Positions 3,304 through 23,840 of a stretch of 40,482 bases of DNA are shown piece after piece. The notes under the pieces were generated by a model, which ran no database searches, was not told the DNA's origin, and was given only the letters and a program-made list of their open reading frames with translations. Position 1 is the first letter of the stretch. Every line of letters starts with the position of its first letter. A program made the position numbers and the translations under genes. Source of the DNA: Escherichia phage vB_EcoP-22664UKE3-2; sequence record MZ234011.1; one strand, written 5' to 3'.

Positions 3304-3321
3304 ACTATCACTATAGGAAAC
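3299..3321 (+). promoter_or_regulatory. Phage RNAP promoter upstream of tail fibre gene (TAAACTATCACTATAGGAAA), predicted +1 near 3316
   Basis: Matches the window's recurrent 20-bp T7-type promoter core; overlaps the gp16 stop codon. Confidence 0.6.
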
Positions 3322-3367
3322 TGGAGGCGCTACCATAGGTCTCCATTTAAATCACAAAGGAGGCATA

Positions 3368-5899: not shown

Positions 5900-6082
5900 G
5901 TAATACTGGAAAGAATCGAAGCCAGACTTTCTGCTCTTGAACAGAAGTAATAAACAAACCATTTTGCCATTAAGTTGGTGGGGTAGATGTTAGAAGGTTG
6001 GTGTGGTATAGACTAACTACACGCTGACCAACGTAGGTAACAACTTTGGGTCACGGACGACCCGCTTTAAACTGGAGGTTTT

Positions 6083-6277
6083 ATGATTGAGTTAGACTTC
6101 AAGAATGAGGTCCTTAAAGCCTCTCCTATCGTCGGGACCGCTGCGGCTGATGGTGCCAGTCGGTTCTTCTTCGGACTTACACTGAACGAATGGTTCTACG
6201 TTGCAGCTATCGCGTACACCGTTGTCCAGATTGGTGTGCTAGTCTACAAAACGATTAAAGGAGGTGGTAAAACATGA
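6083..6277 (+). CDS. Holin (T7 gp17.5-like, class II)
   Basis: MIELDFKNEVLKASPIVGT...FFFGLTLNEWFYVAAIAYTVVQIG closely matches T7 gp17.5 as I recall it; RBS GGAGG upstream. Confidence 0.85.
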   Translation: MIELDFKNEVLKASPIVGTAAADGASRFFFGLTLNEWFYVAAIAYTVVQIGVLVYKTIKGGGKT

Positions 6278-6537
6278 CGCAGATGGACTTAGAGAAGTTC
6301 CTCTTGATGCTGGATACAGAACGTGCTCGACTCATGCTGCAAGACTTGCGGGATGACACTAAGCGTTCACCTCAGCTCTACAACGCCATTGAGAAACTGC
6401 TTGCTCGACACAACTTTGTGTTAAGCAAGGTGTCTGTGGACGAGAAGACGCTGGCGGATATGGAGGCCTTGAACGCAGAGTATGATAAGGTGCTCTCCGC
6501 TACGGAAGATAATGACACTGGATACGGAGTACAGTAA
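6274..6537 (+). CDS. Terminase small subunit (T7 gp18-like)
   Basis: FLLMLDTERARLMLQDL...RSPQLYNAIEKLLARHNF resembles T7 gp18; start overlaps the holin stop (ATGA). Confidence 0.8.
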   Translation: MTQMDLEKFLLMLDTERARLMLQDLRDDTKRSPQLYNAIEKLLARHNFVLSKVSVDEKTLADMEALNAEYDKVLSATEDNDTGYGVQ

Positions 6538-6540
6538 GCG

Positions 6541-6586
6541 TTAGACTCAAGGTCATTACTATATGTAGTGGCCTTTATGGTTAACA
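6541..6586 (+). promoter_or_regulatory. Conserved RNA hairpin, family 2 (AGACTCAAGGTCAT...GTGGCCTTTATGGTTAAC); putative RNase III processing site before gene 18.5
   Basis: One of three copies of the same motif (also about 16553 and 23779); stem AAGGUCA/UGGCCUU requires a G-U pair so works only as RNA; position corresponds to T7 R18.5. Confidence 0.4.
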
Positions 6587-6638
6587 CTAACTAGTGGAGG
6601 AGACTCTACGTGAAATCCGATAAACCGGGAGGGCAACT

Positions 6639-7082
6639 ATGCTCGAATTTTTAAAGAGAGCGGCTCCGTGGTTACTTGCAGCAGTGATGTTTGCTGGTGG
6701 CTACCACACCGCTAACAATAAGTGGGAGGCTAAGGTAAATGCAGAATACACCTCGAATCTTAAGGCATCGGAGGATACAAGGCTTGCTGTCCAAGCTGAA
6801 GTCAACAAAGTGTCCAAACGGTTTCAGGACGAAATGTCCTCGCTGGAAGGCAGCACTGACAGGATTATTGCTGACCTTCAGTCTGACAATAAGCGGCTGC
6901 GCATCCGAGTCAAACCTACGAGTGGAACCACGCAAAGTGACGGTCGATGCGTCATTGATGGTTACGCCGAACTTGACGAACGAGATGCTAAACGTCTTAT
7001 CTCCATCGGACTGAAAGGGGACGCTTGGATTAAAGCACTACAGGATACTATCCGCAAACTTCAACAAGACAAGGAGAAATGA
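6639..7082 (+). CDS. Rz-like i-spanin (T7 gp18.5-like)
   Basis: MLEFLKRAAPWLLAAVMFAGGYH... with RIIADLQSDNKRLRIRVKPT and DERDAKRLISIGLKGDAWIKALQDTIRKLQ matching T7 gp18.5; N-terminal TM segment. Confidence 0.85.
   Translation: MLEFLKRAAPWLLAAVMFAGGYHTANNKWEAKVNAEYTSNLKASEDTRLAVQAEVNKVSKRFQDEMSSLEGSTDRIIADLQSDNKRLRIRVKPTSGTTQSDGRCVIDGYAELDERDAKRLISIGLKGDAWIKALQDTIRKLQQDKEK
6739..7014 (+). CDS. Rz1-like o-spanin lipoprotein embedded in +1 frame of Rz (T7 gp18.7-like)
   Basis: Embedded ORF with lipobox LTISGCAS and C-terminus VDASLMVTPNLTNEMLNVLS resembling T7 gp18.7; exact start uncertain. Confidence 0.7.
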   Translation: MQNTPRILRHRRIQGLLSKLKSTKCPNGFRTKCPRWKAALTGLLLTFSLTISGCASESNLRVEPRKVTVDASLMVTPNLTNEMLNVLSPSD

Positions 7083-7519
7083 TGCTCAGTGATTCGTATT
7101 TCTATGATGAGTCCAGTAAGTCTGGCCTGAAGTCCCTGCGTTCTGGTAAGGATGTGGGGTGTGTGGGAAACCACGGGTATTATCAGGTAGGAACTCGACG
7201 TCATGGACTCCTGCTGGCCCATAGAGTCGTCTGGGAGCTAACCAACGGTCCTATACCAGAAGGGATGGAGATTGACCATATCGACCGCTGCCGGACTAAC
7301 AACAGGCTGGACAACCTCCGGCTAGTTACTTCAAGCGAGAACTCCTGCAACACCTCAGGACATTCTGACTCAAAGACTGGAGTTAAGAACATATCGTTCC
7401 ATCAGAATGGCTACGCTATCGAGGTCATGCGTAAGGGGGTCCGTATGCGAACAACACGTCCTACTTTAGAGGAGGCTATCTCTGTCCGGGACCTAATGCT
7501 GGAGGGACTCTATGTCTAA
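7079..7519 (+). CDS. HNH homing endonuclease
   Basis: [56 protein letters not shown] is a typical HNH motif; sits between Rz and large terminase where T7 has no gene; overlaps terminase start. Confidence 0.75.
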
Positions 7520-9278
7520 GAAAACACCTGCTGAAAGACAGGCTGAAATGACCCAAAGGATGAGGGACGACTTCGTGTTCTTCATCTTCGTTCTCTGGAA
7601 AGCGCTGAGCCTTCCGGTTCCAACCAGATGTCAGATAGATATGTGTAAGAAGCTGGCTGCTGGCGATAACCGACGCTTCATCCTTCAGGCGTTCCGAGGT
7701 ATTGGCAAATCGTTTCTGACCTGTGGTTTCGTGGTCTGGAAGCTATGGAACAACCCAGACTTGAAGTTCATGATTGTGTCGGCCTCAAAGGAACGAGCCG
7801 ATGCAAACTCCATCTTTATCAAGCGAATCATCGACCTCATGCCTCAGCTTCAGGAACTCAAACCTAAGCAGGGACAGCGAGATGCTGTTATCAGCTTCGA
7901 CGTTGGGCCAGCCAAGCCTGACCACTCACCTTCTGTTAAGTCAGTTGGTATCACTGGTCAGTTGACTGGTAGTCGTGCTGACATACTGATTGCCGATGAC
8001 GTGGAGGTTCCGAACAACTCAGCGACTCAGGCTGCACGAGACCGTCTGTCAGAGCTTGTGAAAGAGTTTGACGCTATCCTGAAGCCGGGAGGTACGATCA
8101 TCTATCTGGGTACTCCTCAGAACGAGATGACCCTGTACCGTGAGCTGGAAGGTCGTGGGTACATCACTACTATCTGGCCCGCTCGTTATCCACGCGATAA
8201 GAAGGACTGGCAGTCTTACGGCGACCGTCTTGCACCGATGCTTCAGGCAGAGCTTGAAGAGGACCCTGAGGCCTTCTACTGGCGTCCGACCGATGAAGTT
8301 CGATTCGACGATACTGACCTGAAGGAACGTGAGCTGTCCTACGGTAAAGCTGGCTTCGCTCTACAGTTCATGCTTAACCCTAACCTGAGTGATGCCGAGA
8401 AGTATCCTCTGAAGCTCCGTGACCTTATCGTAGCAGACTTGGACCCAGCGTCCAGCCCAATGGTCTACCAATGGTTACCGAACCCTCAGAACAAGCGTGA
8501 GGACGTTCCTAACGTTGGACTCATGGGTGACTCGTACCACACGTATCAGACTGTAGGTTCTGCCTTCAGTTCGTACACCCAGAAGATTCTGGTCATAGAC
8601 CCTAGTGGTCGTGGTAAGGATGAAACTGGCTATGCGGTACTATACCAGCTCAACGGCTACATCTTCGCTATGGAAGTTGGTGGCATGCGTGGTGGTTATG
8701 AAGACTCTACGCTGGAAGCCTTGGCTAAGATTGGTCGTAAGTGGAGGGTCAACGAATACGTCATTGAGGGTAACTTCGGTGATGGTATGTACCTTGAGCT
8801 ATTCAAGCCTGTAGCGGCCCGTATCCATCCTGCGGCTGTAACTGAAGTGAAGAGTAAGGGTCAGAAAGAACTACGCATCTGTGACGTTCTGGAGCCTATC
8901 ATGGGGTCTCACAGACTTATCGTTAACGCTGCTGCTATCGTCCAAGACTACCAGACAGCCTCTGACAAGGATGGTGTTCGTAATCCTATCTACTCTCTAT
9001 TCTATCAGATGACACGTATCTCTCGTGAGCGTGGAGCCTTGGCACACGATGACCGACTTGATGCGCTGGCTATCGGTGTACAGTTCTTCGTTGAGTCGAT
9101 GGCTAAGGATGCCAACAAAGGCGAACGTGAAGTCACTGAGGAATGGCTGGAGGAACAGATGGAGAACCCACGGAAAGGCTTCGAGTCCATCCACACTGAG
9201 TTCTGGGACAATGGGGTCCGGGTAACTCACGATACGGACGACGAGCTTGGACTAGGGTCATACGTTACGTTCCACTAG
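7512..9278 (+). CDS. Terminase large subunit (T7 gp19-like)
   Basis: 588 aa, same size and position as T7 gp19; Walker A-like GIGKSF motif near the N-terminus. Confidence 0.95.
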
Positions 9279-9287
9279 CTGAATGAA

Positions 9288-9336
9288 TAACTATAGGCGA
9301 AAACTGAATTAATACGCGGTTAGTAACCTATAGTTA
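9288..9336 (+). promoter_or_regulatory. Inverted repeat TAACTATAGG ... CCTATAGTTA (10-bp arms, 29-nt spacer) downstream of terminase
   Basis: Arms are exact reverse complements; lies in the non-coding right-end region. Confidence 0.5.
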
Positions 9337-9372
9337 CTACCAGTCTAACCTACTGTTTTACAAGGAGTTTGG

Positions 9373-9395
9373 ACTTAACTATCACTATAGGGAAG
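9373..9395 (+). promoter_or_regulatory. Phage RNAP promoter (CTTAACTATCACTATAGGGAAGA), phiOR-like position after gene 19
   Basis: Full match to the promoter core; position corresponds to T7 phiOR. Confidence 0.6.
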
Positions 9396-9573
9396 ACCCC
9401 CGGTTACTTATAGTATTACTGTAGTGAATATACATATGCAGACTTTATGCAAGACCTTAGGAGGCAGACTCCGAGTTCTTACCTAAGGCTTGCACCGATG
9501 GAAGGAGGTGATATTAATCATAATCCCTCCAATACAGATAGTCACCGACCATAGATACAGGAGGTATGTAGCA

Positions 9574-9747
9574 TATGGCAAAGACCAAAGCTGTACTTAA
9601 AGCTCTGGCGACCAATCGAGCTACATACAGGTTTCTTGCTGCTGTTCTACTTGCTGCTGGCGTTACTGCTGGAAGTCAGTGGGTCGGGTGGGTCGGGTGG
9701 GTCGGGTGGGTCGAGACTCTCGTATGTACTCTGGTCTCTCAGTGTAA
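9574..9747 (+). CDS. Small Cys-rich ORF (57 aa) containing an in-frame tandem repeat (VGR x4); possible gene 19.5 analogue
   Basis: Manual translation MAKTKAVLKSSGDQSSYIQVSCCCSTCCWRYCWKSVGRVGRVGRVGRDSRMYSGLSV; RBS CAGGAGG about 10 nt upstream. May be non-coding. Confidence 0.25.
9681..9713 (+). repeat. Tandem repeat, 9-bp unit GGGTCGGGT x ~3.7
   Basis: Directly visible: gggtcgggtgggtcgggtgggtcgggtgggtcg. Confidence 0.85.
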
Positions 9748-9980
9748 TTAACGCAATCATGGTAACGATTCATGAGCGGAAGACCTAAGGTCAGTACGTG
9801 GATAAAGACTCACTCTACTGACCTTAGCTACTGTAGTCAAGGACTTTAGGTAACACCTTAAGAGAAGCTCACTTAGGGTCATCCTACTTATTGGTCTATC
9901 CTAGTGTCGCCTGACCTACGGTCCTTGACCTACAGTGGCTGTGGTCTACAGTAGTGACGATGAGTTTTGGACCAAAAGTT

Positions 9981-10180
9981 TGAGACCACATCTCACAGTT
10001 CAAGAACTTCAAGTCTCCCCCATAGGCCTCTTTCAGTCCAGACCAAAGGCCCTACCCCAGTCTATCATAAGGTTGGACCGATGGTCAAGACTTCAGGTCA
10101 ACGATAGGTTGTGGCTATGGCTTAGGGAAGGACGATAGGTTGGGACTATGGGTCTGTCTTTGAGTCTCTATCTGTATCAG
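9981..10180 (+). repeat. Putative genome left end / terminal-repeat region (approximate boundaries)
   Basis: TCTCACAGT...TCTCCCCCATAGG resembles the T7 left-terminal sequence as I recall it; lies between the phiOR-like promoter and the host-promoter cluster. Confidence 0.35.
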
Positions 10181-10193
10181 ACCTTGAGTCACT

Positions 10194-10257
10194 ACCTACA
10201 GTCTAACTACCTACAGTCATCGACCATCGGTAATGCCGCTACCTACAGTCATCGACC
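10194..10257 (+). repeat. Short direct repeats ACCTACAGTC(ATCGACC) x3, analogous to the T7 end-proximal short repeat arrays
   Basis: ACCTACAGTC at 10194, 10209 and 10241; the last two extend to the 17-mer ACCTACAGTCATCGACC. Confidence 0.6.
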
Positions 10258-10376
10258 TACGGTTAATAGACACAAGGATATAGACTTAAGGTCTAATACA
10301 TGTTAGTCAAAGACTATATCCTCTTAGTCACTATGGGGCCGACGATAGCTTAATCAATATTATTTAAGATTACCTA

Positions 10377-10412
10377 TTGACTACAGGTCCAGACTATGGC
10401 TTAATATCTTCC
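10377..10412 (+). promoter_or_regulatory. Candidate host sigma70 early promoter (A1-like): TTGACT -35 with weak -10
   Basis: TTGACT at 10377-10382; a CTTAAT/TAATAT-like -10 follows at 17-19 nt; position matches the T7 A1-A3 cluster. Confidence 0.35.
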
Positions 10413-10517
10413 GTCAACACGACACGGCAACAACCGGATAGTGAAGACGCCGGGTCATCCCGGTTAAGTAGACAGCCTGATAAGTCATACGAACAACAGG
10501 CAGATGACAGAAAGTAG

Positions 10518-10547
10518 TTGACAAGATGTACCGACTTAAAGTAGTAT
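10518..10547 (+). promoter_or_regulatory. Host sigma70 early promoter (A3-like): TTGACA - 18 nt - TAGTAT
   Basis: TTGACAAGATGTACCGACTTAAAGTAGTATGTACCACATC closely parallels T7 A3 as I recall it, including the GTACCACAT start region. Confidence 0.5.
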
Positions 10548-10660
10548 GTACCACATCAACACGAAACAACGGTGACGACCAACACTGAAACGGTCTACCT
10601 GAAGTCCTCTGACTGAAGGGAATGCTCTTTAACAATCTGGATAAACTCTTAATGTGCGCC

Positions 10661-10723
10661 GACAGTGATTAACTACAGGGTCTTTGAGTCTACATCTGAA
10701 GGCCCTGACTGATAGTCACTAAC
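10661..10723 (+). promoter_or_regulatory. Repeated hairpin element, family 1 copy A (putative RNase III site before first early gene)
   Basis: AGTGATTAACTACAGG...CCTGACTGATAGTCACTAAC; imperfect inverted repeat; nearly identical to copy D at 12156. Confidence 0.5.
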
Positions 10724-10730
10724 TTAACGG

Positions 10731-10985
10731 ATGGACACTATGAAACACTTAAGCACAATCACTAATCGCAATGAAGTATTCGTGAACACTAAAGGTTATG
10801 CGTGGATTCAGCTTAAAGAGATGAGAGGAGCGCGTCACCGTGTGGTAGTTCGCAAGGTATCAAGCAAGCCGTTCAGCAACTACAGCGTAGATACTATGCG
10901 TATAGACAACGAGACTTACCTGATAGACTCGCAGATAACCGTGCGTCCTACAGCGGGCATCTCAGCTCCTTATTTCGCTAACTGA
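10731..10985 (+). CDS. Hypothetical early protein (84 aa, basic)
   Basis: ORF with RBS-like GGATGGA upstream; first gene after the host promoters; bracketed by family-1 hairpins; no similarity I can recognise. Confidence 0.6.
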   Translation: MDTMKHLSTITNRNEVFVNTKGYAWIQLKEMRGARHRVVVRKVSSKPFSNYSVDTMRIDNETYLIDSQITVRPTAGISAPYFAN

Positions 10986-11040
10986 GAGTGATTAACTACA
11001 GGTCGTTAGACTGATAGCGGCCTGACTGATAGTCACTAGC
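10985..11040 (+). promoter_or_regulatory. Repeated hairpin element, family 1 copy B (putative RNase III site)
   Basis: Same outer arms as copy A with inner variant GTCGTTAGACTGATAGCGGCC; near-identical to copy C. Confidence 0.5.
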
Positions 11041-11058
11041 AACCTAAGAGGATTCATT

Positions 11059-11337
11059 ATGAGACTGAACAAAGCTACAGCAGAAGCCTTTCGCAAGGAG
11101 CTTGAATCAAGATTATTGTGTGGAGTGGCGGAAGGAGCCGCTCGATATAAAGAGAATGGTCTAACGTTCAAGCGCTTTATGTGGGATTGCTATCACGGAG
11201 TGGGCCATAAAAAGTCGCAGGAAATAATCACCAGCAACAATGCGGAAGTGCAAGTGATAGGAGGATACATGGCTAACGTGAAGGATTCACACATAGAGAC
11301 AATGCTTAAGAATGCACTTAAAGATGTAGCCTACTAG
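11059..11337 (+). CDS. Hypothetical early protein (92 aa)
   Basis: ORF with RBS AAGAGGA upstream; between hairpin copies B and C; no recognisable similarity. Confidence 0.6.
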   Translation: MRLNKATAEAFRKELESRLLCGVAEGAARYKENGLTFKRFMWDCYHGVGHKKSQEIITSNNAEVQVIGGYMANVKDSHIETMLKNALKDVAY

Positions 11338-11388
11338 TGATTAACTACAGGTCGTTAGACTGATAGCGGCCTGACTGATAGTCACTAA
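11333..11388 (+). promoter_or_regulatory. Repeated hairpin element, family 1 copy C (putative RNase III site before ocr)
   Basis: Near-identical to copy B. Confidence 0.5.
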
Positions 11389-11417
11389 CACATAATTAAC
11401 TTTGAGAGGATATAACT

Positions 11418-11924
11418 ATGGAACGTAATGCTAACGCATACTATGAGCTGCTGGCTGCAACCGTTGAGGCATTTATCGAGCGTATTCAGTACGACCACCT
11501 GACTCAAGATGATGACTACAGCGATGCGCTGCATGAGGTCGTAGACGGTCAGGTTCCACACTATTACCACGAGATTTTTACGGTGATGGCTGCTGATGGT
11601 ATAGACCACGAGTTCGAAGACTCTGGGCTGATGCCTGAAACCAAGGACGTAACGCGTATCCTACAAGCTCGCATCTATGAGGCGCTTTATAACGATGTGT
11701 CTAATAGCTTGGATGTAGTCTGGTTTGAGGATGAAGAGGCAGAAGAAGAGGATGAATATTGGGTAGTTGACGCTAAAACAGGCGCAATAATTGTGCAAGC
11801 TGTAGCTCTTGAGGTCGCTACTGCATGTACCAAGGTTAACTATGCGGCAGGTCGCCACCTGAAGGTGGAAGACATCAATGATAACGTAGTGTTCGACCCT
11901 GCGGCTGAGGACTGCGAGCGATGA
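11418..11924 (+). CDS. ocr: Ocr-like anti-restriction DNA-mimic protein (T7 gp0.3 homologue), 168 aa with C-terminal extension
   Basis: [43 protein letters not shown] matches T7 Ocr ([43 protein letters not shown]) as I recall it; highly acidic. Confidence 0.85.
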
Positions 11925-12091
11925 TAACTTACGGTTTATGCCAGCACCACGTCACCAACGCCCGACTTATGGTCAAGACCGGGCGGTTAACCCATGATGA
12001 GACTATGCGTCTCCTGAAGGTGGTCTACAAGCGCCGCAAGCGCATACACGACAGTTTGCACGCTGAGGATAACCAACAATGCTCCAGATAA
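11921..12091 (+). CDS. Small hypothetical early ORF (56 aa)
   Basis: ATG overlaps the ocr stop (ATGA); manual translation [56 protein letters not shown]. Confidence 0.3.
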
Positions 12092-12155
12092 CTTATAGCA
12101 GCGAACAAGCGTTCTACGACGGGTGCTACGAGATGATGAAGCGCGATACTTGCTA

Positions 12156-12220
12156 GCGACAGTGATTAACTACAGGGTCTTTGAGTCTACATCTGAAGGC
12201 CCTGACTGATAGCCACTAAC
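12156..12220 (+). promoter_or_regulatory. Repeated hairpin element, family 1 copy D (putative RNase III site)
   Basis: One mismatch relative to copy A over about 60 bp. Confidence 0.5.
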
Positions 12221-12236
12221 AACTGAGAGGACAGAT

Positions 12237-12464
12237 ATGAACACAATCACTGGTGCCATAGCCAAAGGTTTTCGAGCAATTTTCAGTGAATCGCAAGAAG
12301 TATGCACCAATCATAAATTCGTACTTTCTTGCGTAGTAGGGGACGAGTTTGACGGATTCGATAAACTGGTGGTTTGCGACCATTGTGGACAAGAGGCTAT
12401 CCAACGCTCAAACGGTAAATTTGAATTAATAGACGATAGCCTTACAGAAGGAGACGGCGAGTAA
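12237..12464 (+). CDS. Hypothetical early protein (75 aa) with Cys pairs (possible zinc ribbon)
   Basis: RBS GAGAGGA upstream; two Cys pairs including CDHC. Confidence 0.5.
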   Translation: MNTITGAIAKGFRAIFSESQEVCTNHKFVLSCVVGDEFDGFDKLVVCDHCGQEAIQRSNGKFELIDDSLTEGDGE

Positions 12465-12596
12465 CCTAGATAAACAGGAGAGAACCAAATCGTAGCTTGA
12501 CCATAACGCTGACAGGTGGATACTGAGTGATAGACGAGAGGCCGTCGAATGATAGGTGGCCTCAAAGATTATCACTTGAATTAATAGGAGTTAACT

Positions 12597-12686
12597 ATGA
12601 GTGTGGGATATTGGGTCTGCCTAGCGCCAGTTATCTGGATGATAGGCTATGGGTTATACGACTGTATTAAACGGAAATCACTATGA
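12597..12686 (+). CDS. Small hydrophobic ORF (29 aa)
   Basis: RBS TAGGAG 6 nt upstream; MSVGYWVCLAPVIWMIGYGLYDCIKRKSL; N-terminus paralogous to the next ORF (IGYGL). Confidence 0.3.
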   Translation: MSVGYWVCLAPVIWMIGYGLYDCIKRKSL

Positions 12687-12880
12687 GTATTGCACTATTG
12701 ATAGCCATAGGCTATGGACTTATCGCATACGTGCTGGTGAGAGACATCAACAAGGCACGTAAAGTCTATAAATTCAACTATGTACGTATGGTCCGCTGGA
12801 CTGTACGTCAACCTAACGGACGATTCCTGCGCAATTTAGCGAACGTCTGGGATATAGCAACTCTTGGGAGCAAACTGTAA
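12683..12880 (+). CDS. Small membrane protein (65 aa)
   Basis: Start overlaps the previous stop (ATGA); N-terminal hydrophobic segment LLIAIGYGLIAYVLV then basic tail. Confidence 0.45.
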   Translation: MSIALLIAIGYGLIAYVLVRDINKARKVYKFNYVRMVRWTVRQPNGRFLRNLANVWDIATLGSKL

Positions 12881-13206
12881 TGAACAAGTCATACGGGATT
12901 AATCTGGTACACTCTATGGACGCAGAAATGAACATGTTAAGCCTACTGGCTACCGGGTATCGTCACGGAACGTCAAGTCACACCGCACGTCAACAGCAGG
13001 AGAGGGACCGTGTACTACAGGCGCGACTCCGGGCAGAGGGCCATAAGTCCGAACTGATGTGTCTGGCGTATGGCGGACGACCGATCACTGACGATGGTAA
13101 ACTTCTGGTATCAGGCTGGAAGGCGATAGACCAACGGTCAACCATCAAGCACACGACTCACGGTGACTTCAGCCATCTCCACGCTAACCCACTGATATGC
13201 AAGTGA
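12880..13206 (+). CDS. Hypothetical early protein (108 aa)
   Basis: ORF in the early region immediately upstream of the RNAP gene; no recognisable similarity. Confidence 0.5.
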   Translation: MNKSYGINLVHSMDAEMNMLSLLATGYRHGTSSHTARQQQERDRVLQARLRAEGHKSELMCLAYGGRPITDDGKLLVSGWKAIDQRSTIKHTTHGDFSHLHANPLICK

Positions 13207-13211
13207 TTATG

Positions 13212-13234
13212 ACTTAACTATCACTATAGGACTC
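13212..13234 (+). promoter_or_regulatory. Phage RNAP promoter immediately upstream of the RNAP gene (CTTAACTATCACTATAGGACTC)
   Basis: Full promoter core 70 nt upstream of the gene 1 start. Confidence 0.6.
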
Positions 13235-13303
13235 AAGGTCTAAGACTCCAAGTGAAAGACCAAAGAGACTTTAAGTGAAAGACTAATAACAAGGACTTTA
13301 AGT

Positions 13304-15985
13304 ATGAGCGTCATCTCTATTGACAAACACGACTTCTCTGATGTGTCGAACGCCATTGAGCCGTTTAACCTGCTGGCTGACCACTACGGGCAAGACCTTG
13401 CAGTCAAACAGCTTCAGCTTGAGCATGAGGCCTACACTGAAGGTGAGCGACGTTTCATCAAGAACCTTGAGCGTCAGACCGAGCGAGGGGAACTGGCAGA
13501 CAATCAGGTCGCCAAGCCTTTGATGCAGACTCTGGTTCCTAAGATTGCGCAAGCCGTCAAGGAGTGGCACGAAGGTCCAGACGGGAAGCTGTCAACCTCA
13601 CGTCCGAGCGTAGCGTTCACCATGTTAAGCACTGAAGAGAAGGCCGTCAAGGACCGCTCTCTTCGCATCTCCTGCGAGTCTGCTGCGGTTATCATACTGA
13701 AGGTCATCCTCTCCAAGCTGGTCAAGCCTGAAGGTATACCGATTACACCGATGGCCTCCGCGATAGGTCGCACACTTGAGGATGAAATCCGATTCGGTCG
13801 CATTCGTGACAAGGAGAAGGAGCACTTCAAGAAGGCGATAGCTGATAACCTGAACAAGAGAGCCGGGGCATCATACAAGAAAGCCTACATGCAAGCGGTC
13901 GAGACATCCATGCTGGAGCAAGGCCAACTAGAAGATGCGTGGGGAACTTGGAGTCCGACCGAGGCTGTCCACGTTGGAATCAAGATGCTGGAGATTGTCA
14001 TACAGTCAACACAACTGGTCGAGCTTAAGCGTTACGGTGCTGGCAATGCAGCGGCTGACGTTGAGATGGTCCACCTGTCAGACTTCTGGGTCAAGAAGAT
14101 GGCACAACGAGGATTCAGCCTTGCGGGTATCGCCCCAGTCTACCAGCCTTGCGTCGTTCCGCCTAAGCCGTGGACTGGTGTCGTAGGCGGTGGGTATTGG
14201 GCCAAAGGTCGAAGACCATTGCCACTGATTCGCTTAGGGTCTAAGTCTGCGGTAGCACGTTATGAAGACGTATACATGCCTGAAGTCTATGAAGCTGTGA
14301 ATATCATCCAGAATACACCTTGGAAAGTGAACAAGAAGGTATTGGACGTGGTGAACAGGGTCGAGAAGCTGAACAACACGCCTATTAATGACATCCCTCA
14401 GATGGAACCGCTGAAGCCTGAGGACTATGCTGGTGAAACCGAGGAGGAACTCAAGGCATGGAAGAAGGCTGCTGCTGGTATCTATCGCCGCGAGAAGGCC
14501 AGACAGTCACGCAGATTATCACTGAGCTTTATCGTTAACCAAGCAAACAAGTTCTCTCAGTTCAAGGCCATCTGGTTCCCGTACAACATGGATTGGCGAG
14601 GTCGTGTCTACGCTGTCCCGATGTTCAACCCTCAGGGTAACGACATGCAGAAGGGGCTCCTGACTCTGGCAGTCGGCAAGCCTATTGGTGCTGACGGTTT
14701 CAAATGGCTGAAGGTCCACGGTGCAAACTGTGCGGGTGTCGATAAAGTCACCTTCGATGAGCGCATCAAGTGGGTGGAAGACAACCACGAAAACATCATG
14801 GCTGCTGCTAAGGCACCGATGGATAGCATTGAGTGGTGGGGCAAGTTAGACTCTCCGTTCTGCTTCCTAGCGTTCTGCTTCGAGTATGCTGGCGTAATGC
14901 ACCACGGCTTGTCTTACTCCTGCTCGCTGCCGATAGCGTTCGATGGGTCCTGCTCTGGGATTCAGCACTTCAGCGCTATGCTTCGCGACCACATCGGTGG
15001 ACATGCAGTAAACCTGACGCCATCCGGTAAGGTCCAAGACATCTACCGCATCGTGTCTGACCGCATTGAGGAGGAGCTTAAAGTCCTACTGGTTAACGGT
15101 ACGGACAACGAGATGGTAACTCACGAGGACAAGAAAACTGGTGAGATTACCGAGCGTCTCAAGCTGGGGACACGAGAGCTTGCCCGTCAGTGGCTGACCT
15201 ACGGTATGTCACGAAAGGTCACTAAGCGTTCGGTCATGACTCTGGCCTACGGGTCGAAAGAGTACGGCTTCGCAGGCCAAGTTTACGAGGACATCGTGAT
15301 GCCAGCGATTGACTCAGGGTCTGGCGCTATGTTCACTGAACCAAGCCAAGCATCTCGCTTCATGGCTAAGATGATTTGGGAAGCTGTGAGTGTGACCGTA
15401 GTTGCTGCGGTTGACGCGATGAAATGGCTTCAGGGTGCTGCCAAGCTGCTTGCTGCTGAAGTGAAGGACAAGAAGACTGGAGAAATCCTGAAGCCTTGTC
15501 TTCCGGTACACTGGGTCACACCTGATGGTTTCCCTGTCTGGCAGGAATACCGAAAGAAGGACACCACTCGTCTGAACCTGATGTTCTTAGGGTCATTCAA
15601 CCTTCAGCCTACCGTCAACAAAGGCACGAAGAAAGAGCTGGACAAGCACAAGCAGGAGTCAGGCATTAGCCCGAACTTCGTCCACTCACAAGATGGTAGC
15701 CACCTCCGCAAGACTGTAGTCCACACGCACCGCAAATATGGCGTGATGTCATTCGCAGTGATTCACGATAGCTTCGGGACCATCCCGGCTGACGCTGAGT
15801 ATCTGTTCCGTGGAGTCCGTGAGACGATGGTCGAGACCTACCGCGACAACGATGTGCTGCTTGACTTCTACGAGCAGTTTGAATACCAGCTTCACGAGAG
15901 CCAGAGAGACAAGTTGCCTGAGCTTCCTAAGAAAGGTAAACTGAATATCGAAGACATCTTGTCTTCAGACTTTGCATTCGCTTAA
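13304..15985 (+). CDS. 1: DNA-directed RNA polymerase, single-subunit (T7 gp1-like)
   Basis: 893 aa; N-terminus DKHDFSDVSNAIEPFNLLADHYG...LEHEAYTEGERRF...ADNQVAKPL parallels T7 RNAP; C-terminal FAFA like T7. Confidence 0.97.
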   Translation: MSVISIDKHDFSDVSNAIEPFNLLADHYGQDLAVKQLQLEHEAYTEGERRFIKNLERQTERGELADNQVAKPLMQTLVPKIAQAVKEWHEGPDGKLSTSRPSVAFTMLSTEEKAVKDRSLRISCESAAVIILKVILSKLVKPEGIPITPMASAIGRTLEDEIRFGRIRDKEKEHFKKAIADNLNKRAGASYKKAYMQAVETSMLEQGQLEDAWGTWSPTEAVHVGIKMLEIVIQSTQLVELKRYGAGNAAADVEMVHLSDFWVKKMAQRGFSLAGIAPVYQPCVVPPKPWTGVVGGGYWAKGRRPLPLIRLGSKSAVARYEDVYMPEVYEAVNIIQNTPWKVNKKVLDVVNRVEKLNNTPINDIPQMEPLKPEDYAGETEEELKAWKKAAAGIYRREKARQSRRLSLSFIVNQANKFSQFKAIWFPYNMDWRGRVYAVPMFNPQGNDMQKGLLTLAVGKPIGADGFKWLKVHGANCAGVDKVTFDERIKWVEDNHENIMAAAKAPMDSIEWWGKLDSPFCFLAFCFEYAGVMHHGLSYSCSLPIAFDGSCSGIQHFSAMLRDHIGGHAVNLTPSGKVQDIYRIVSDRIEEELKVLLVNGTDNEMVTHEDKKTGEITERLKLGTRELARQWLTYGMSRKVTKRSVMTLAYGSKEYGFAGQVYEDIVMPAIDSGSGAMFTEPSQASRFMAKMIWEAVSVTVVAAVDAMKWLQGAAKLLAAEVKDKKTGEILKPCLPVHWVTPDGFPVWQEYRKKDTTRLNLMFLGSFNLQPTVNKGTKKELDKHKQESGISPNFVHSQDGSHLRKTVVHTHRKYGVMSFAVIHDSFGTIPADAEYLFRGVRETMVETYRDNDVLLDFYEQFEYQLHESQRDKLPELPKKGKLNIEDILSSDFAFA

Positions 15986-16000
15986 CAACAGGAGAAGTAT

Positions 16001-16231
16001 ATGTCAATGAAACTTGTAGCACACAACAGGGTATTCAACGATGGGTCGGGACGTTGCCATGTAGAGCTGACTTATAAGGATTTAATCATTCTCCGAGACA
16101 GATTACAGTCGGGTGTGACTGGGTGGATTCAACCTAACGAGTACAACCTTATAGCTTCGATTGATGAAGTTCTTAACGCGTGGATGGAAGACGAGCGCAT
16201 TCAGTATCCGTCATTCCCTCTAATTAGATAA
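16001..16231 (+). CDS. Hypothetical protein (76 aa)
   Basis: ORF with RBS CAGGAGAAG upstream, between RNAP and the phi1.1-like promoter. Confidence 0.5.
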   Translation: MSMKLVAHNRVFNDGSGRCHVELTYKDLIILRDRLQSGVTGWIQPNEYNLIASIDEVLNAWMEDERIQYPSFPLIR

Positions 16232-16241
16232 GGAGAGAGTT

Positions 16242-16457
16242 ATGAAATTTGCACACAAGCATACTGGCGTTAATGGTGGGACTCAAATCGTGACCGTAAC
16301 AGAACACAACGGCAAGGGTCTGGTGAAGACCACGGTCATCCCTACCGAGATGTCCAAGCAGCTTAACATCCCGTTCAAGACTCTTGTATATCTGGTCGAG
16401 TCCAGCCACGAGAAGTACCTGAAGGACGCAGTGTCCAAGCTGGAGCAGGCCAAATGA
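16242..16457 (+). CDS. Hypothetical protein (71 aa)
   Basis: ORF with RBS AAGGAGAG upstream. Confidence 0.5.
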   Translation: MKFAHKHTGVNGGTQIVTVTEHNGKGLVKTTVIPTEMSKQLNIPFKTLVYLVESSHEKYLKDAVSKLEQAK

Positions 16458-16532
16458 CAGACATACAGTTACTGGCCCTGTGGCTGGGAGCACTCGCAGT
16501 ATTCACTTTAATCCAACGCAGAAGAGGTTAAC

Positions 16533-16555
16533 CCTAAACTATCACTATAGGCTTA
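16533..16555 (+). promoter_or_regulatory. Phage RNAP promoter (CCTAAACTATCACTATAGGCTTA), phi1.1-like
   Basis: Full promoter core upstream of gene 1.1. Confidence 0.6.
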
Positions 16556-16598
16556 GACTCAAGGTCATGACTCAAAGTCGTGGCCTTCATGATTAACC
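16553..16598 (+). promoter_or_regulatory. Conserved RNA hairpin, family 2; putative RNase III site (R1.1-like)
   Basis: AGACTCAAGGTCAT...GTGGCCTTCATGATTAAC; same motif as at 6541 and 23779. Confidence 0.4.
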
Positions 16599-16628
16599 CT
16601 AAATAAACACTACTGGAGATTTAACCGT

Positions 16629-16808
16629 ATGTATCAGAACACTATCAACTTCGAGCGCATCCGTGAACGTCAGCAGACTGAAGGTTACATCCCTAAGGGC
16701 CGCAAGCTGAACAAGACTAAACGTGGCGGTGGTATCAAAGGCGCTTTCAGAAACGCTGAAGGTAAAGACTCTCTGGTCAACCAAGAGAAATACTTCGTAG
16801 GAGCATAA
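16629..16808 (+). CDS. gp1.1-like small basic protein (59 aa)
   Basis: Manual translation contains KGRKLNKTKR, matching T7 gp1.1 as I recall it. Confidence 0.6.
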   Translation: MYQNTINFERIRERQQTEGYIPKGRKLNKTKRGGGIKGAFRNAEGKDSLVNQEKYFVGA

Positions 16809-16812
16809 CTCT

Positions 16813-17076
16813 ATGGGCCGACTTTATAGTGGCAACATCAACGCTTTCAGAGCAGCGTGTAACAGGCTTTATCAGTTAGACTTCTGCGTGATACAGCAGG
16901 ACTGGTACGACGCGCATCTTCGGAAAGAGTGCATGAGACTTCAAGTCGAGGACCGAGCTGGTAACATCTTCGCGCTTGAGACCTTCGCACACTACGATGA
17001 AGACGTGCTGTATAATACCGCAACCGACTACCTCAACGGTCTCGCTGACCATCTCGACACATGGAGCAAAGAATAA
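16813..17076 (+). CDS. gp1.2-like protein (host dGTPase inhibitor homologue)
   Basis: MGRLYSGNINAFRAACNRLYQLDFCVIQQDWYDAHLRKECMRLQVEDRAGN parallels T7 gp1.2 (MGRLYSGNLAAFKAATNKLFQLD...). Confidence 0.85.
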   Translation: MGRLYSGNINAFRAACNRLYQLDFCVIQQDWYDAHLRKECMRLQVEDRAGNIFALETFAHYDEDVLYNTATDYLNGLADHLDTWSKE

Positions 17077-18164
17077 TGACAACTATCAAAACTAACCCTC
17101 ACCGCGCTGTAGATTACTCTGAGTCTGGAATTAAGAAGGCACTGGAAGCAGCCGGGTCTCTGGAAGCTGAAGTGAAGTACGATGGTGTGCGCCTGAACCT
17201 CCTGGTACTGCGTGAAGGTGAGACCTACTGGCTTAGCCGCGAGTCGAAACCTCTACCAGCCTTGGAGTGGATGAACTCTGAGTTAGGTAATGCGTGGACC
17301 CAAGCTGACTGGCGATGGTTCCTGCGTCAATCCGGCTACGAAGGTGTGGGCATGATGATTGATGGCGAGGTCATGGTCAAAGGTGTAGACTTCAACACCT
17401 CCTCAGGTCTCATCCGAACGAAGTGGCTCAAGCCTAACAACGAGGAGTTCGCTGAATACTATTCGCCGGCGACTGGTGGAAAGAAGCTCCCGTTCTGGGG
17501 ATCCCGGTCACGACTTCAGGTTGTGGTATATGGCGTTGTCGATATGACAACCATAGCAGACCCGAAAGCAGAAGGTCCTATCCATAGCGTAACCCGCCTG
17601 AAGGCTGAAGCTATCGTCCCTCTCCTCCAGAAATACTTCCCGGAAATCGACTGGGTTCTGTCTGAGTCACACACGGTCTATGACCTTGAGTCGCTCAACT
17701 CCCTGTACGAACAGAAGCGTCTGGAAGGACATGAGGGTCTGGTAGTCAAGGACCCACTGGGTAAGTACAAGCGTGGCAAGAAGTCTGGCATGTGGAAAAT
17801 GAAGCCTGAGGAGACCATCGACGGGACCGTGTGTGGCCTCGTGTGGGGGACTCCTGGTAAGGCTAACGAAGGTAAGGTCATCGGCTTTGAGGTTCTACTG
17901 GAGGATGGCATGGTGGTCAACGCCTGTGGTCTGACTGAAGAACAGAAGGACGAGTTTACGGCTAAGGTCAAGGAGGACACGCTTGCTGCGGTTGGCATCT
18001 TTGCGCCGTACGGCATTGGTGGTAACGAACCTTGCTTCGATAACCCATACGAAGGCTGGCAGTGTGAAGTCCTCTTCATGGAGAGGTTCCCTGATGGCTC
18101 CCTTCGTCACCCCAGCTTCAAGTGCTGGCGTGGAACCGAAGACAACCCAACGGTGAAGTCATGA
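17076..18164 (+). CDS. ATP-dependent DNA ligase (T7 gp1.3-like)
   Basis: IKTNP...EVKYDGVRLN (adenylation KxDG motif)...EGHEGLVVKDP...KRGKKSGMWKMKPE...SLRHPSF parallels T7 ligase; start chosen at the ATG overlapping the gp1.2 stop (the track ORF begins at 17061). Confidence 0.95.
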   Translation: MTTIKTNPHRAVDYSESGIKKALEAAGSLEAEVKYDGVRLNLLVLREGETYWLSRESKPLPALEWMNSELGNAWTQADWRWFLRQSGYEGVGMMIDGEVMVKGVDFNTSSGLIRTKWLKPNNEEFAEYYSPATGGKKLPFWGSRSRLQVVVYGVVDMTTIADPKAEGPIHSVTRLKAEAIVPLLQKYFPEIDWVLSESHTVYDLESLNSLYEQKRLEGHEGLVVKDPLGKYKRGKKSGMWKMKPEETIDGTVCGLVWGTPGKANEGKVIGFEVLLEDGMVVNACGLTEEQKDEFTAKVKEDTLAAVGIFAPYGIGGNEPCFDNPYEGWQCEVLFMERFPDGSLRHPSFKCWRGTEDNPTVKS

Positions 18165-21530: not shown

Positions 21531-21743
21531 ATGATTAAACTTATTGAATTTCTGGGTCGTCTGGTTGTGCGTGGCTATTCTCGTGCTGCGAGTGTGGAAC
21601 GAAAAGTCGCATCTGCTGCGGCTAAAGGTGCGGAAGCGGCTGCTGCGGAAGCGGATAGTCTGCGCATCAAGTCTCTGGACGCTGGCCTACGTGCCAAAGG
21701 TCTTGACAAGAAAGCCGAGCAACTGAAAGGCTTCTTCAGCTAA
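21531..21743 (+). CDS. Hypothetical protein (70 aa), Ala/Lys-rich
   Basis: ORF with RBS AAGGAGA upstream. Confidence 0.5.
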   Translation: MIKLIEFLGRLVVRGYSRAASVERKVASAAAKGAEAAAAEADSLRIKSLDAGLRAKGLDKKAEQLKGFFS

Positions 21744-21806: not shown

Positions 21807-21885
21807 GTCTCCATAGCTCAAACGGTAGAGCGGCGGGTCGTGATGGCCTATTGCGATTAGGGTTCGAATCCCCGTGGAGACGCCA
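21807..21885 (+). tRNA. tRNA-like element (degenerate; possible pseudo-tRNA or tRNA-like structure)
   Basis: Perfect 7-bp acceptor stem GTCTCCA/TGGAGAC, D-arm GCTC-AAACGGTA-GAGC, canonical T-loop TTCGAAT in GGTTCGAATCC, discriminator G then CCA; I could not fold a clean anticodon stem and the middle is about 3 nt long. Confidence 0.35.
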
Positions 21886-21896
21886 CTAAGGAGTGA

Positions 21897-23776
<1,880 letters not shown>

Positions 23777-23778
23777 GT

Positions 23779-23823
23779 CTAGACTCAAGGTCATTCATAG
23801 CGAGTGGCCTTTATGATTAGACT
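23779..23823 (+). promoter_or_regulatory. Conserved RNA hairpin, family 2; putative RNase III site upstream of DNA polymerase
   Basis: AGACTCAAGGTCAT...GTGGCCTTTATGATTAG; third copy of the motif. Confidence 0.4.
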
Positions 23824-23840
23824 AAAGCGGAGGATTAACC

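What the first reader, a model, noticed from the sequence alone, without database searches (positions are those of the whole stretch)
10661..12220. Four copies of a ~60-bp hairpin element punctuate the early operon; copies A and D are near-identical direct repeats 1.5 kb apart
Elements at 10661, 10985, 11333 and 12156 share outer arms AGTGATTAACTACAGG / CCTGACTGATAGTCACTA and fall into two subtypes (A/D and B/C) differing only in the inner loop. They match the role of T7 RNase III sites separating early mRNAs, but their near-identity also makes them substrates for homologous recombination that would delete or exchange the ocr-containing block between A and D, a possible cassette-shuffling mechanism.
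Basis: partly seen in the sequence, partly recalled or inferred. Interest (0 to 1): 0.6.

Follow-up and report, generated by a model that had tools for sequence, protein, structure and literature searches.

The report
RNase III hairpins flank swappable genes
Five copies of a ~55-base RNA hairpin in this T7-like coliphage are almost certainly host RNase III cutting sites that separate the early messages, and relatives show that small early genes are gained, lost and reordered exactly at these hairpins.

Summary
Four near-identical hairpins lie at 10664, 10987, 11336 and 12161. The window is a whole K1F-like (Kayfunavirus) genome, probably vB_EcoP-22664UKE3-2.

A covariance model built only from these hairpins recovers the T7 early RNase III sites and the four annotated T3 RNase III stem-loops, with no other hit at E<1. 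The two-helix fold shows strong covariation. They are ordinary T7-group RNase III processing sites; cleavage itself is inferred.

The recombination idea is partly supported.
- 34 relatives show 24 hairpin/gene arrangements.
- g84 and g92 occur in swapped order, with breakpoints inside the hairpins.
- One relative lacks g92 through a clean 349-bp deletion that leaves one hairpin.
- Sequence distances are uncoupled across hairpins.
- Lab-bred phages (PM129 group) differ from their backbone parent by exactly the 294-bp g92 cassette between two hairpins.

The specific A×D deletion of the ocr block was found nowhere. D plus g75 arose by illegitimate capture of a siphophage gene into a split gene, not by hairpin homology.

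This parallels the PeSL cassettes of T4-type phages. It is known biology with a modestly new twist.

The parts
10518..10547 (+). sigma-70-type early promoter candidate (TTGACA-18-TAGTAT) upstream of hairpin A
   Evidence: Best promoter-like site in 9300-17500, 10 of 12 matches. The position matches the T7/T3 A promoters.
10664..10720 (+). Hairpin A (type a), in the position of T7/T3 R0.3. Predicted RNase III cut between 10710 and 10711.
   Evidence: (71.7 bits). The cut position is inferred by alignment to the T7 motif CCUUUAU^GAU (plus remembered Dunn & Studier coordinates).
10731..10985 (+). g84 cassette gene (K1F gp0.2 homologue, phrog_10124, function unknown). The likely start is the second ATG, at 10740.
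   Evidence: Present or absent, and in variable position, among relatives.
10987..11037 (+). Hairpin B (type c). Predicted cut between 11027 and 11028.
   Evidence: z -4.6; 79.8 bits.
11059..11337 (+). g92 cassette gene (phrog_9817, function unknown). Its TAG stop codon overlaps the first 2 nt of hairpin C.
   Evidence: Absent from L003/L004 as an exact hairpin-to-hairpin unit.
11336..11386 (+). Hairpin C (type c, identical to B). Predicted cut between 11376 and 11377.
   Evidence: z -5.1; 78.2 bits.
11418..11924 (+). ocr (gene 0.3) anti-restriction gene
   Evidence: phrog_2568, E 4e-54; annotated as Ocr in relatives.
11921..12091 (+). gp0.35-like small gene (F2, phrog_5058)
12079..12156 (+). 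5' fragment (25 codons) of gene F4, which is 41 aa and intact in other Kayfunaviruses. It is cut off by the D-g75 insertion.
   Evidence: Alignment with intact F4 of L035, L009 and L017.
12161..12217 (+). Hairpin D (type a, a copy of A with one mismatch). Predicted cut between 12207 and 12208.
   Evidence: 70.1 bits. Relatives LM33_P1, PSK1 and SHAK7854 have a type-d hairpin at this position.
12237..12464 (+). g75 cassette gene (phrog_32657, Cys-rich, function unknown), captured from a Kagunavirus-type siphophage
   Evidence: 88-93% aa identity in Kagunavirus phages. Nucleotide homology to phage XY1 runs from the SD (about 12225) to the vestigial start of XY1's next gene (about 12490).
12494..12526 (+). 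3' remnant of the split F4 gene (encodes ...SLTITLTGGY*). Its TGA stop codon overlaps the first nt of hairpin E.
12526..12576 (+). Predicted cut between 12566 and 12567.
   Evidence: z -4.6; 67.8 bits. Its lower stem is identical to that of T7 and AP10 R0.5.
16545..16604 (+). Diverged family member after the RNA polymerase gene (R1.1-like)
   Evidence: 23.7 bits, E 0.003; z -4.4; it precedes ORF 16629-16808.
23771..23827 (+). Diverged family member downstream of the 566-aa ORF that ends at 23600
   Evidence: 20.9 bits; z -4.5; ORF coordinates.
6533..6592 (+). Diverged family member in the late region, about 0.9 kb upstream of the large terminase ORF (7512-9278)
   Evidence: 33.9 bits, E 1e-5; z -4.7.

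Best explanation
The elements are host RNase III processing sites in the polycistronic early mRNA of a K1F-like T7-family phage.

How the RNA site works. Each folds into an 8-bp lower stem, an asymmetric internal loop (4 nt on the 5' side, 5 nt on the 3' side) and a 10-12-bp upper stem. By homology with T7 it is cut once, on the 3' side of the internal loop (..CCUGACU^GAUAGUCACU..). The upstream message keeps the hairpin at its 3' end. The downstream message starts about 10 nt before its own leader and Shine-Dalgarno sequence.

How the DNA repeat works. Function holds most of the 51-57 nt nearly constant, so the sites are also dispersed direct repeats. These repeats serve as portable homology ('linkers'). 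Recombination between non-allelic hairpins, or between the hairpins of co-infecting relatives, deletes, inserts, swaps or reorders the leader+ORF units between them. Reading frames and expression signals are not damaged.

Shown here: the fold and its covariation; homology to T7/T3 sites; coincidence of rearrangement breakpoints with hairpins; cassette gain in bred progeny.

Inferred: cleavage by RNase III; the enzymology of the recombination (the T7-type homologous recombination system).
For: RNase III identity
- Model R1 was built only from Kayfunavirus hairpins. Its five best hits in the first 7 kb of T7 are 1425-1482, 850-904, 5845-5901, 3098-3152 and 6410-6456.
- The remembered Dunn & Studier cleavage coordinates 890, 1468 and 5887 each fall at UUUAU^GAU inside these hits.
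- In T3, the only four hits with E<1 coincide with the annotated stem_loops 'RNase III recognition site' R0.3, R0.5, R1.1 and R1.
- On 74 distinct hairpins, 95% of cells pair, against 27-53% with slid partners. Eleven of 18 pairs show compensatory changes. Frequent G-U pairs point to selection on the + strand RNA.

Linker role
- 34 relatives show 24 arrangements, with 2-5 hairpins each.
- The window has [a]-g84-[c]-g92-[c]-ocr; L007 has [a]-g92-[c]-g84-[c]-ocr. Each gene keeps its own leader and its last 4 nt.
- L003 equals the window minus exactly 349 bp. It keeps one hairpin with B's left flank and C's right flank, and has only 4 other differences in 3 kb.
- The same F4 3' end, whose stop codon overlaps the hairpin, is joined to hairpin types b, g, d and e.
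- Gene adjacencies that contain a hairpin are variable on both sides in 22 of 24 cases, against 8 of 24 without a hairpin (Fisher p = 6e-5).
- Pairwise distances of adjacent segments correlate at r = 0.03-0.28 across hairpins. Without a hairpin, three of four junctions give r = 0.62-0.80.
- Arm types and upper-stem types occur in reticulate combinations.
- The g92 homologue of Yersinia phage AP10, a different genus, is also hairpin-flanked and is followed by a type-c hairpin.
- Bred phages PM129/131/137/139 carry the 101120B2 allele at every informative SNP from 8984 to 13175, but also carry the 294-bp g92 cassette between B2's two hairpins. The breeding design is described in PMC8614997.
Against: - No experimental cleavage data exist for this phage.
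- Hairpin-containing junctions are also simply gene boundaries, so selection for intact units would enrich breakpoints there.
- The samples are few, related, and partly chosen for diversity.
- Mosaic breakpoints between the window and its closest relative L031 lie inside ocr (about 11829-11919) and inside the gene at about 12691-12727, not at hairpins.
- One junction without a hairpin is also unlinked (postE|F1, r = 0.13).
- Cassette variation occurs downstream of E without hairpins (F16, F9, F18).
- g75 sits away from any hairpin in L037.
- The D-g75 unit entered by illegitimate recombination into F4.
- For PM129, the parents are identical in the flanks, so crossovers need not have been in the hairpins. 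PM129's cassette differs from the window's at 11039 and 11135, so a pre-existing variant in the B2 stock cannot be excluded.
Confidence: 0.65

Rival explanations
1. The hairpins are RNase III sites and nothing more. Rearrangements arise by ordinary homologous recombination in flanking genes or by illegitimate events. Breakpoints look concentrated at hairpins only because selection keeps intact gene-plus-signal units. The identity of the outer arms is maintained by RNA function, for example re-pairing of the ends of processed mRNAs.
For: - Breakpoints inside genes.
- The D-g75 unit was inserted by SD microhomology into the F4 coding sequence.
- Hairpin-free variation downstream of E.
- The predicted processed g92 mRNA pairs its 5' end with the 5' arm of the next hairpin. 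This gives a functional reason for identical arms.
- Hairpins are more conserved than neighbouring genes even across genera.
Against: - The exact 349-bp deletion leaves one chimeric hairpin.
- The order swap of g84 and g92 has both breakpoints inside 51-57-nt hairpins.
- One gene end is joined in register to four hairpin types.
- Arm and upper-stem types combine reticulately.
- These in-register junctions are what homologous exchange within the repeat predicts. They are hard to obtain repeatedly by illegitimate events.
Confidence: 0.25
2. The hairpins are recombination sites of an active, site-specific cassette system (integron attC-like or IS200/IS605-like hairpin recognition) rather than passive homology.
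For: - They are imperfect hairpins with conserved outer arms and a variable centre, bounding single-ORF cassettes.
- Cassette edges are very precise.
- 101120B2 carries two hairpins in tandem, 4 nt apart, with no gene between them. Simple homologous exchange does not explain this.
Against: - No recombinase is visible in the annotated early regions, and the phages are reported devoid of lysogeny genes (PMC8614997).
- All copies are on one strand and intergenic within one operon.
- G-U-rich covariation indicates RNA-level selection.
- The model recovers bona fide RNase III sites of T7 and T3.
- The element is absent from 5,426 complete E. coli genomes and from the Kagunavirus loci that carry g75.
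Confidence: 0.03
3. The hairpins are transcription terminators or attenuators, or operators for a DNA- or RNA-binding regulator.
For: They are stable stem-loops between genes.
Against: - No U-tract follows them. Zero terminator-like sites were found in 9300-17500, against 5.0 expected by chance.
- The internal-loop architecture and sequence match RNase III sites.
Confidence: 0.02

Closest known systems
T7 and T3 early RNase III processing sites (R0.3, R0.5, R1, R1.1, R1.3)
   Same: - Same two-helix hairpin with an asymmetric internal loop.
- Same conserved motifs (AGYGAU..ACU.AGG / CCU...GAU..UCACU).
- Same intergenic position in the sigma-70-transcribed early operon, just upstream of SD sequences.
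- The model built here finds them specifically.
- E has the same lower stem as T7 R0.5, and A occupies the R0.3 position.
   Different: - More copies lie upstream of gene 1: five here, against three in T7 and T3.
- The 3' internal-loop sequence is CCUGACU or CCUCAAA instead of CCUUUAU.
- There is no R1-type site in front of gene 1; a phage-promoter-like repeat sits there instead (family D5).
- Cleavage has not been shown for this phage.
PeSL (promoter-early stem-loop) mobile regulatory cassettes of T4-type phages (Arbiol et al. 2010, PMC2839356; Comeau et al. 2014, PMC4122927)
   Same: - A repeated, conserved intergenic regulatory motif flanks small non-essential genes of unknown function.
- A gene flanked by two motifs in one phage is replaced by a single motif in a close relative.
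- The proposed mechanism is homologous exchange between motifs, which moves genes together with their expression signals.
   Different: - The motif here is an RNA-processing site, not a promoter plus terminator.
- It is about 55 nt rather than about 100 nt.
- It lies in a T7-type phage with a single early operon.
- Mini-circles were not looked for.
Conserved 'linker'/boundary sequences of the modular theory of phage evolution (Botstein; lambdoid phages). This comparison rests on my own knowledge.
   Same: Short conserved sequences at module boundaries allow exchange between otherwise diverged genomes. T7 ocr and T3 SAMase are unrelated genes in the same R0.3-R0.5 slot.
   Different: Here the linker has an identified primary function (RNase III processing) that explains why it is conserved.
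Integron attC sites and gene cassettes
   Same: Imperfect hairpins with conserved outer arms and a variable centre bound promoterless single-ORF cassettes in a variable order.
   Different: There is no integrase. Selection acts on the RNA fold. The elements are homologous to RNase III sites. The resemblance is one of layout only.

Membership tests
T7-group early RNase III processing sites | Hairpin of about 50-60 nt with two helices (about 8 bp and 10-12 bp) separated by an asymmetric internal loop | tested here: met
   Folds of A, B, C and E, and of three further copies. The consensus structure is 95% paired over 74 distinct sequences. D's lower stem is weakened by one A.C mismatch.
T7-group early RNase III processing sites | Sequence-and-structure homology to mapped or annotated RNase III sites of T7 and T3 | tested here: met
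   The five best R1 hits in T7 1-7000 lie at the R0.5, R0.3, R1.1, R1 and R1.3 positions (T7 coordinates from memory). The only four hits with E<1 in T3 1-7000 coincide with the annotated RNase III stem_loops. Alignment.
T7-group early RNase III processing sites | Intergenic, on the coding strand of the host-RNA-polymerase-transcribed early operon, just upstream of an SD sequence and start codon | tested here: met
T7-group early RNase III processing sites | Structure maintained by compensatory change at the RNA level | tested here: met
   Eleven of 18 pairs change on both sides; many G-U pairs; slid controls pair at 27-53% against 95%. The alignment was fitted to the model, which biases the count somewhat.
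T7-group early RNase III processing sites | Cleavage by E. coli RNase III in vivo or in vitro | not testable with these tools
   Cut sites after 10710, 11027, 11376, 12207 and 12566 are predicted by alignment only.
PeSL-type mobile regulatory cassettes | Repeated conserved intergenic motif flanking variable small ORFs, with a single (chimeric) motif in relatives that lack the ORF | tested here: met
   Window against L003: a 349-bp deletion that leaves one hairpin with B's left flank and C's right flank. Arrangement maps.
PeSL-type mobile regulatory cassettes | Motif made of a strong sigma-70 early promoter plus a stem-loop terminator | tested here: not met
   No promoter consensus lies within the hairpins, and no terminator-like site was found in 9300-17500. 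This is therefore not a PeSL, only an analogue.
PeSL-type mobile regulatory cassettes | Excised mini-circles carrying one motif plus the ORF | not testable with these tools
   Needs outward-facing PCR or raw reads.
Integron attC cassette system | Tyrosine recombinase (IntI) acting on the hairpins | tested here: inconclusive
   No recombinase appears among the annotated early-region genes of relatives. The authors report no lysogeny genes (PMC8614997). The whole window was not scanned protein by protein.

The most novel reading that the evidence does not exclude
RNase III hairpins may be the T7 group's general cassette-exchange linkers.
- The conserved outer arms would be held identical by two RNA functions: RNase III recognition, and re-pairing of the 5' and 3' ends of each processed mRNA.
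- This would give all Studiervirinae a shared set of roughly 50-nt crossover points.
- Leader+ORF units, largely anti-defence and host-takeover genes, would be exchanged through them within and between genera.
- The exchange would be fast enough to be seen in 20 laboratory passages.
Probability: 0.35. Interest if true: 0.7.

Novelty: new variant of a known kind. Interest (0 to 1): 0.5.

Why it matters
The RNase III sites themselves are textbook T7 biology. The added point is that an RNA-processing signal also marks the DNA boundaries at which early genes are exchanged. That would explain why the early, anti-defence region of T7-like phages is so variable: 24 arrangements in 34 genomes.

It also gives a concrete example of the 'conserved linker' idea of modular phage evolution, in which the linker's own function explains its conservation.

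For phage engineering and breeding it suggests natural, expression-neutral insertion points. It also flags g92, gained by all four sequenced bred Kayfunavirus progeny, as a candidate fitness gene.

Tried and rejected
- Rfam at gathering thresholds has no family for the hairpins. Its only hit is a tRNA.
- Terminator reading: no terminator-like sites.
- Host repeat or MITE reading: no match in 5,426 complete E. coli genomes.
- A x D deletion: a synthetic junction (A's left flank + hairpin + D's right flank) found no contiguous match among 213 matching phage records.
- An exact-pattern scan for the same junction in IMG/VR and JGI metagenomes gave 3 hits. All were the ordinary [a]-ocr arrangement, because the leader AACAACTGAGAGG is shared. 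The pattern was therefore not specific and gave no evidence of deletion.
- I checked whether g75 travels with a hairpin in Kagunavirus siphophages. It does not.
- I looked for other genomes with tandem hairpins. Only 101120B2 has them, and no microhomology explains the arrangement.
- Literature searches for RNase III sites as recombination points in K1F/T7-like phages found nothing. The library lacks most older subscription papers, so prior statements cannot be excluded. The K1F genome paper and Kong & Masker 1994 could not be read.
- The feature table of SHAK7854 (L031) is offset from its sequence, so I ignored it and re-derived the positions.
- MZ234011 is not in the searchable collection. 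The identity of the window with 22664UKE3-2 therefore rests on the equal length (40482 bp) and on its closest relatives.
Full report
WHAT THE WINDOW IS

The 40,482-bp window is a complete, circularly permuted genome of a K1F-like T7-family coliphage (genus Kayfunavirus). Region 10400-13300 is 99.8% identical to phages vB_EcoP-PM129/131/137/139 and 99.3-99.5% identical to vB_EcoP-101120B2 and 101120B1-2. Table 1 of Loose et al. 2021 (PMC8614997) lists one Kayfunavirus of exactly 40,482 bp, 22664UKE3-2 (MZ234011). That accession is absent from the searchable collection. The window is therefore very probably that phage.

The finding lies between the terminal-repeat and early-promoter region and the RNA polymerase gene (13304-15985). 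This is the early operon, transcribed by the host polymerase. A strong sigma-70-like promoter lies at 10518-10547.

THE OBSERVATION

The two-arm pattern matches exactly four times, with none in 100 shuffles. A (10664-10720) and D (12161-12217) are 98% identical over 64 nt. B (10987-11037) and C (11336-11386) are identical.

It is only about 60% identical but folds the same way through compensatory substitutions. A covariance model adds three weaker members at 6533-6592, 16545-16604 and 23771-23827.

The layout is:
A - g84 - B - g92 - C - ocr - gp0.35-like - F4 fragment - D - g75 - F4 remnant - E - small genes - RNA polymerase.

WHAT THE ELEMENTS ARE

Each hairpin folds into an 8-bp lower stem, an asymmetric internal loop and a 10-12-bp upper stem. 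I built a covariance model from the five window copies and the three K1F copies only.

- In the first 7 kb of T7, its five best hits are 1425-1482, 850-904, 5845-5901, 3098-3152 and 6410-6456. From my own knowledge of Dunn & Studier 1983, the early RNase III cuts are at 1468, 890, 5887, 3138 and 6448. The first three fall at the same U^G of CCUUUAU^GAU in the aligned hits.
- The T3 record annotates stem_loops as 'RNase III recognition site' R0.3, R0.5, R1, R1.1 and R1.3. The model's only four hits with E<1 in that 7 kb coincide with four of them.
- On 74 distinct hairpins from 26 phage loci plus the window, 95% of cells pair. With the partner slid, 27-53% pair. Eleven of 18 pairs show double changes, and G-U pairs are frequent, which points to selection on the + strand RNA.
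- The elements are not terminators, not a host repeat, and not in Rfam.

I conclude with high confidence that they are RNase III processing sites. E is the orthologue of R0.5, with an identical lower stem, and A stands in the R0.3 position. By alignment the cuts should fall after 10710, 11027, 11376, 12207 and 12566. Cleavage itself is inferred.

THE RECOMBINATION IDEA: SUPPORTING EVIDENCE

I mapped hairpins and ORF families in the early regions of 34 relatives. Twenty-one came from IMG/VR and the rest from GenBank.

- Arrangements. The hairpin-bounded part shows 24 different arrangements, with 2 to 5 hairpins per genome.
- Order swap. The window reads [a]AACT-g84-TGAG[c]AGCA-g92-TACT[c]AACA-ocr. 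L007 reads [a]AACA-g92-TACT[c]AACT-g84-TGAG[c]AACA-ocr. The same two leader+ORF units are in swapped order, and every breakpoint lies inside a hairpin.
- Clean deletion. L003 (101120B1-2) equals the window minus exactly 349 bp. It keeps one hairpin with B's left flank and C's right flank, and has only four other differences in 3 kb.
- Interchangeable slots. The slot before ocr can hold g84, g92, F25 or nothing. The slot before E can hold g75 or F17.
- One gene end, four hairpin types. The 3' end of F4, whose stop codon overlaps the first hairpin base, is joined in register to hairpin types b, g, d and e in different genomes.
- Reticulation. Arm types and upper-stem types combine in a reticulate way.
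- Variable junctions. Gene adjacencies that contain a hairpin are variable on both sides in 22 of 24 cases, against 8 of 24 without a hairpin (p = 6e-5). These cases are not phylogenetically independent.
- Linkage. Pairwise distances of neighbouring segments are nearly uncorrelated across hairpins (r = 0.28, 0.03, 0.08). Without a hairpin they correlate at 0.62, 0.74 and 0.80, with one exception at 0.13.
- Other genera. In Yersinia phage AP10 the g92 homologue (60% aa identity) is again flanked by hairpins. It is followed by a type-c hairpin very similar to the window's B/C copies in alignment, and the TAG stop codon overlaps the hairpin in the same way.

A LABORATORY CASE

Loose et al. bred a cocktail of 22664UKE3-2, 101120B2 and a Vectrevirus for 20 rounds. 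They reported progeny with a 101120B2 backbone. The progeny genomes (40,193 bp) exceed 101120B2 (39,899 bp) by 294 bp.

PM129 carries the 101120B2 allele at every informative SNP from 8984 to 13175. It nevertheless contains the 294-bp g92 cassette (window 11042-11335), exactly between the two tandem hairpins of 101120B2. It even keeps the 101120B2 base at 11039, two nt after the hairpin. This places the left joint at the 3' edge of the hairpin homology.

Two caveats apply. The parental flanks are identical, so the right joint is unresolved. PM129's cassette also has one extra SNP (11135), so a pre-existing g92+ variant in the 101120B2 stock cannot be excluded.

- The predicted A x D deletion of the ocr block was not found. 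A synthetic junction query gave no contiguous match among 213 matching phage records. The pattern scans of IMG/VR and metagenomes returned only ordinary [a]-ocr genomes.
- The A/D identity is lineage-specific. Of the 40 records listed from 410 matches, 8 show a second matching place. LM33_P1, PSK1 and SHAK7854 have a type-d hairpin at the D position.
- D-g75 did not arrive by hairpin homology. In the window, gene F4 is split: its first 25 codons precede D and its last 10 codons precede E.
- The g75 tract is homologous at the nucleotide level to Kagunavirus siphophages. The homology runs from the Shine-Dalgarno sequence to the vestigial start of the siphophage's next gene. Those loci carry no hairpin.
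- D plus its leader AACAACTGAGAGG equals the [a]-ocr leader of 'minimal' Kayfunaviruses. D therefore looks like a reused first hairpin and leader, fused at the SD to a captured gene.
- Mosaic breakpoints against the closest relative, L031, lie inside genes. Variation also occurs downstream of E without hairpins.

The hairpins are thus preferred sites of exchange, not exclusive ones.

COMPARISON WITH KNOWN SYSTEMS

As RNA elements these are members of the T7/T3 RNase III site family. All testable defining features are met, and cleavage is untested.

As recombination linkers they work like the PeSL cassettes of T4-type phages. There, a gene flanked by two motifs in one phage is replaced by a single motif in a close relative, and exchange between motifs shuffles genes (PMC2839356). 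They are not PeSLs, because they contain neither a promoter nor a terminator.

[quoted passage not shown] 1979 and Kong & Masker 1994, as cited in PMC5630979). I found no paper that states RNase III sites are cassette boundaries in T7-like phages. The library lacks most of the older literature, so priority is uncertain.

VERDICT

The cassette-shuffling reading is supported in general form but not for the specific A x D event. The result is ordinary in kind. The comparative and bred-phage evidence for linker-mediated exchange adds moderate interest.

Noticed in passing
window 21807-21885 (+): A tRNA-Thr(CGU)-like gene lies in the gap between ORFs 21531-21743 and 21900-23600. Both Rfam (36.7 bits) and ARAGORN find it. 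It is present in 33 phage records and annotated as a tRNA in a few of them. This is unusual for T7-like phages.
   Followed up: partly
L004 (MZ234023, 101120B2) 1088-1193: Two identical type-c hairpins stand in tandem, 4 nt apart, with no gene between them. This is unique among GenBank phages. No microhomology explains it, either as a duplication or as a g92 deletion.
   Followed up: partly
window 11042-11335; PM129 (L045) 2142-2438: All four sequenced bred Kayfunavirus progeny of Loose et al. 2021 gained the g92 cassette, with one shared Gly>Glu change (11135). g92 may therefore have been selected during breeding on the UPEC panel. Its function is unknown (phrog_9817, no Pfam hit).
   Followed up: partly
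window 12225-12490; L028 (Kagunavirus XY1) 2480-2755: g75 is shared at 88-93% aa identity between podoviral Kayfunaviruses and siphoviral Kagunaviruses. The podovirus copy retains the RBS and the mutated start of the siphovirus's next gene, which suggests transfer from the siphovirus to the podovirus.
   Followed up: yes
window 11028-11376: The predicted processed g92 mRNA pairs its 5' end (the 3' arm of B) with the 5' arm of C, in both the MFE and the centroid fold. Identical lower stems would give every processed early mRNA complementary ends.
   Followed up: no
window 9340-9391 and 13179-13230: A 52-nt direct repeat (79% identical) ends in GACTTAACTATCACTATAGG, which resembles a phage RNA polymerase promoter (my own reading, not tested here). 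The second copy sits just upstream of the RNA polymerase gene, where T7 and T3 have the R1 RNase III site (family D5).
   Followed up: no
window 9679-9713 and 10101-10263: A perfect 9-nt tandem repeat (GTGGGTCGG; the three 17-nt copies at 9-bp spacing span about four units) and arrays of 20-25-nt imperfect repeats lie in the non-coding stretch upstream of the early promoter. 101120B2 and PM129 have two fewer 9-nt units.
   Followed up: no
window 10156-10198, compared with 10680-10698 and 12177-12195: The upper stem and loop of hairpins A and D (GTCTTTGAGTCTACATCTG) resembles short repeats in the upstream non-coding region at 89% identity. This hints at where the type-a upper stem came from (family D4).
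   Followed up: no
L016, L019, L022-L025 (type f/i) and L020, L021, L027 (type h), first hairpin: In some Kayfunaviruses the first hairpin carries an insertion of about 30 nt in its apical loop (e.g. CCGCGAGACGGGCTTGACTTGAGCG), giving 87-89-nt elements.
   Followed up: no
L031 (OR594182, SHAK7854): In this UNVERIFIED record the feature coordinates are offset by about 2.5 kb from the sequence. For example, g92 lies under a feature labelled RNA polymerase.
   Followed up: yes
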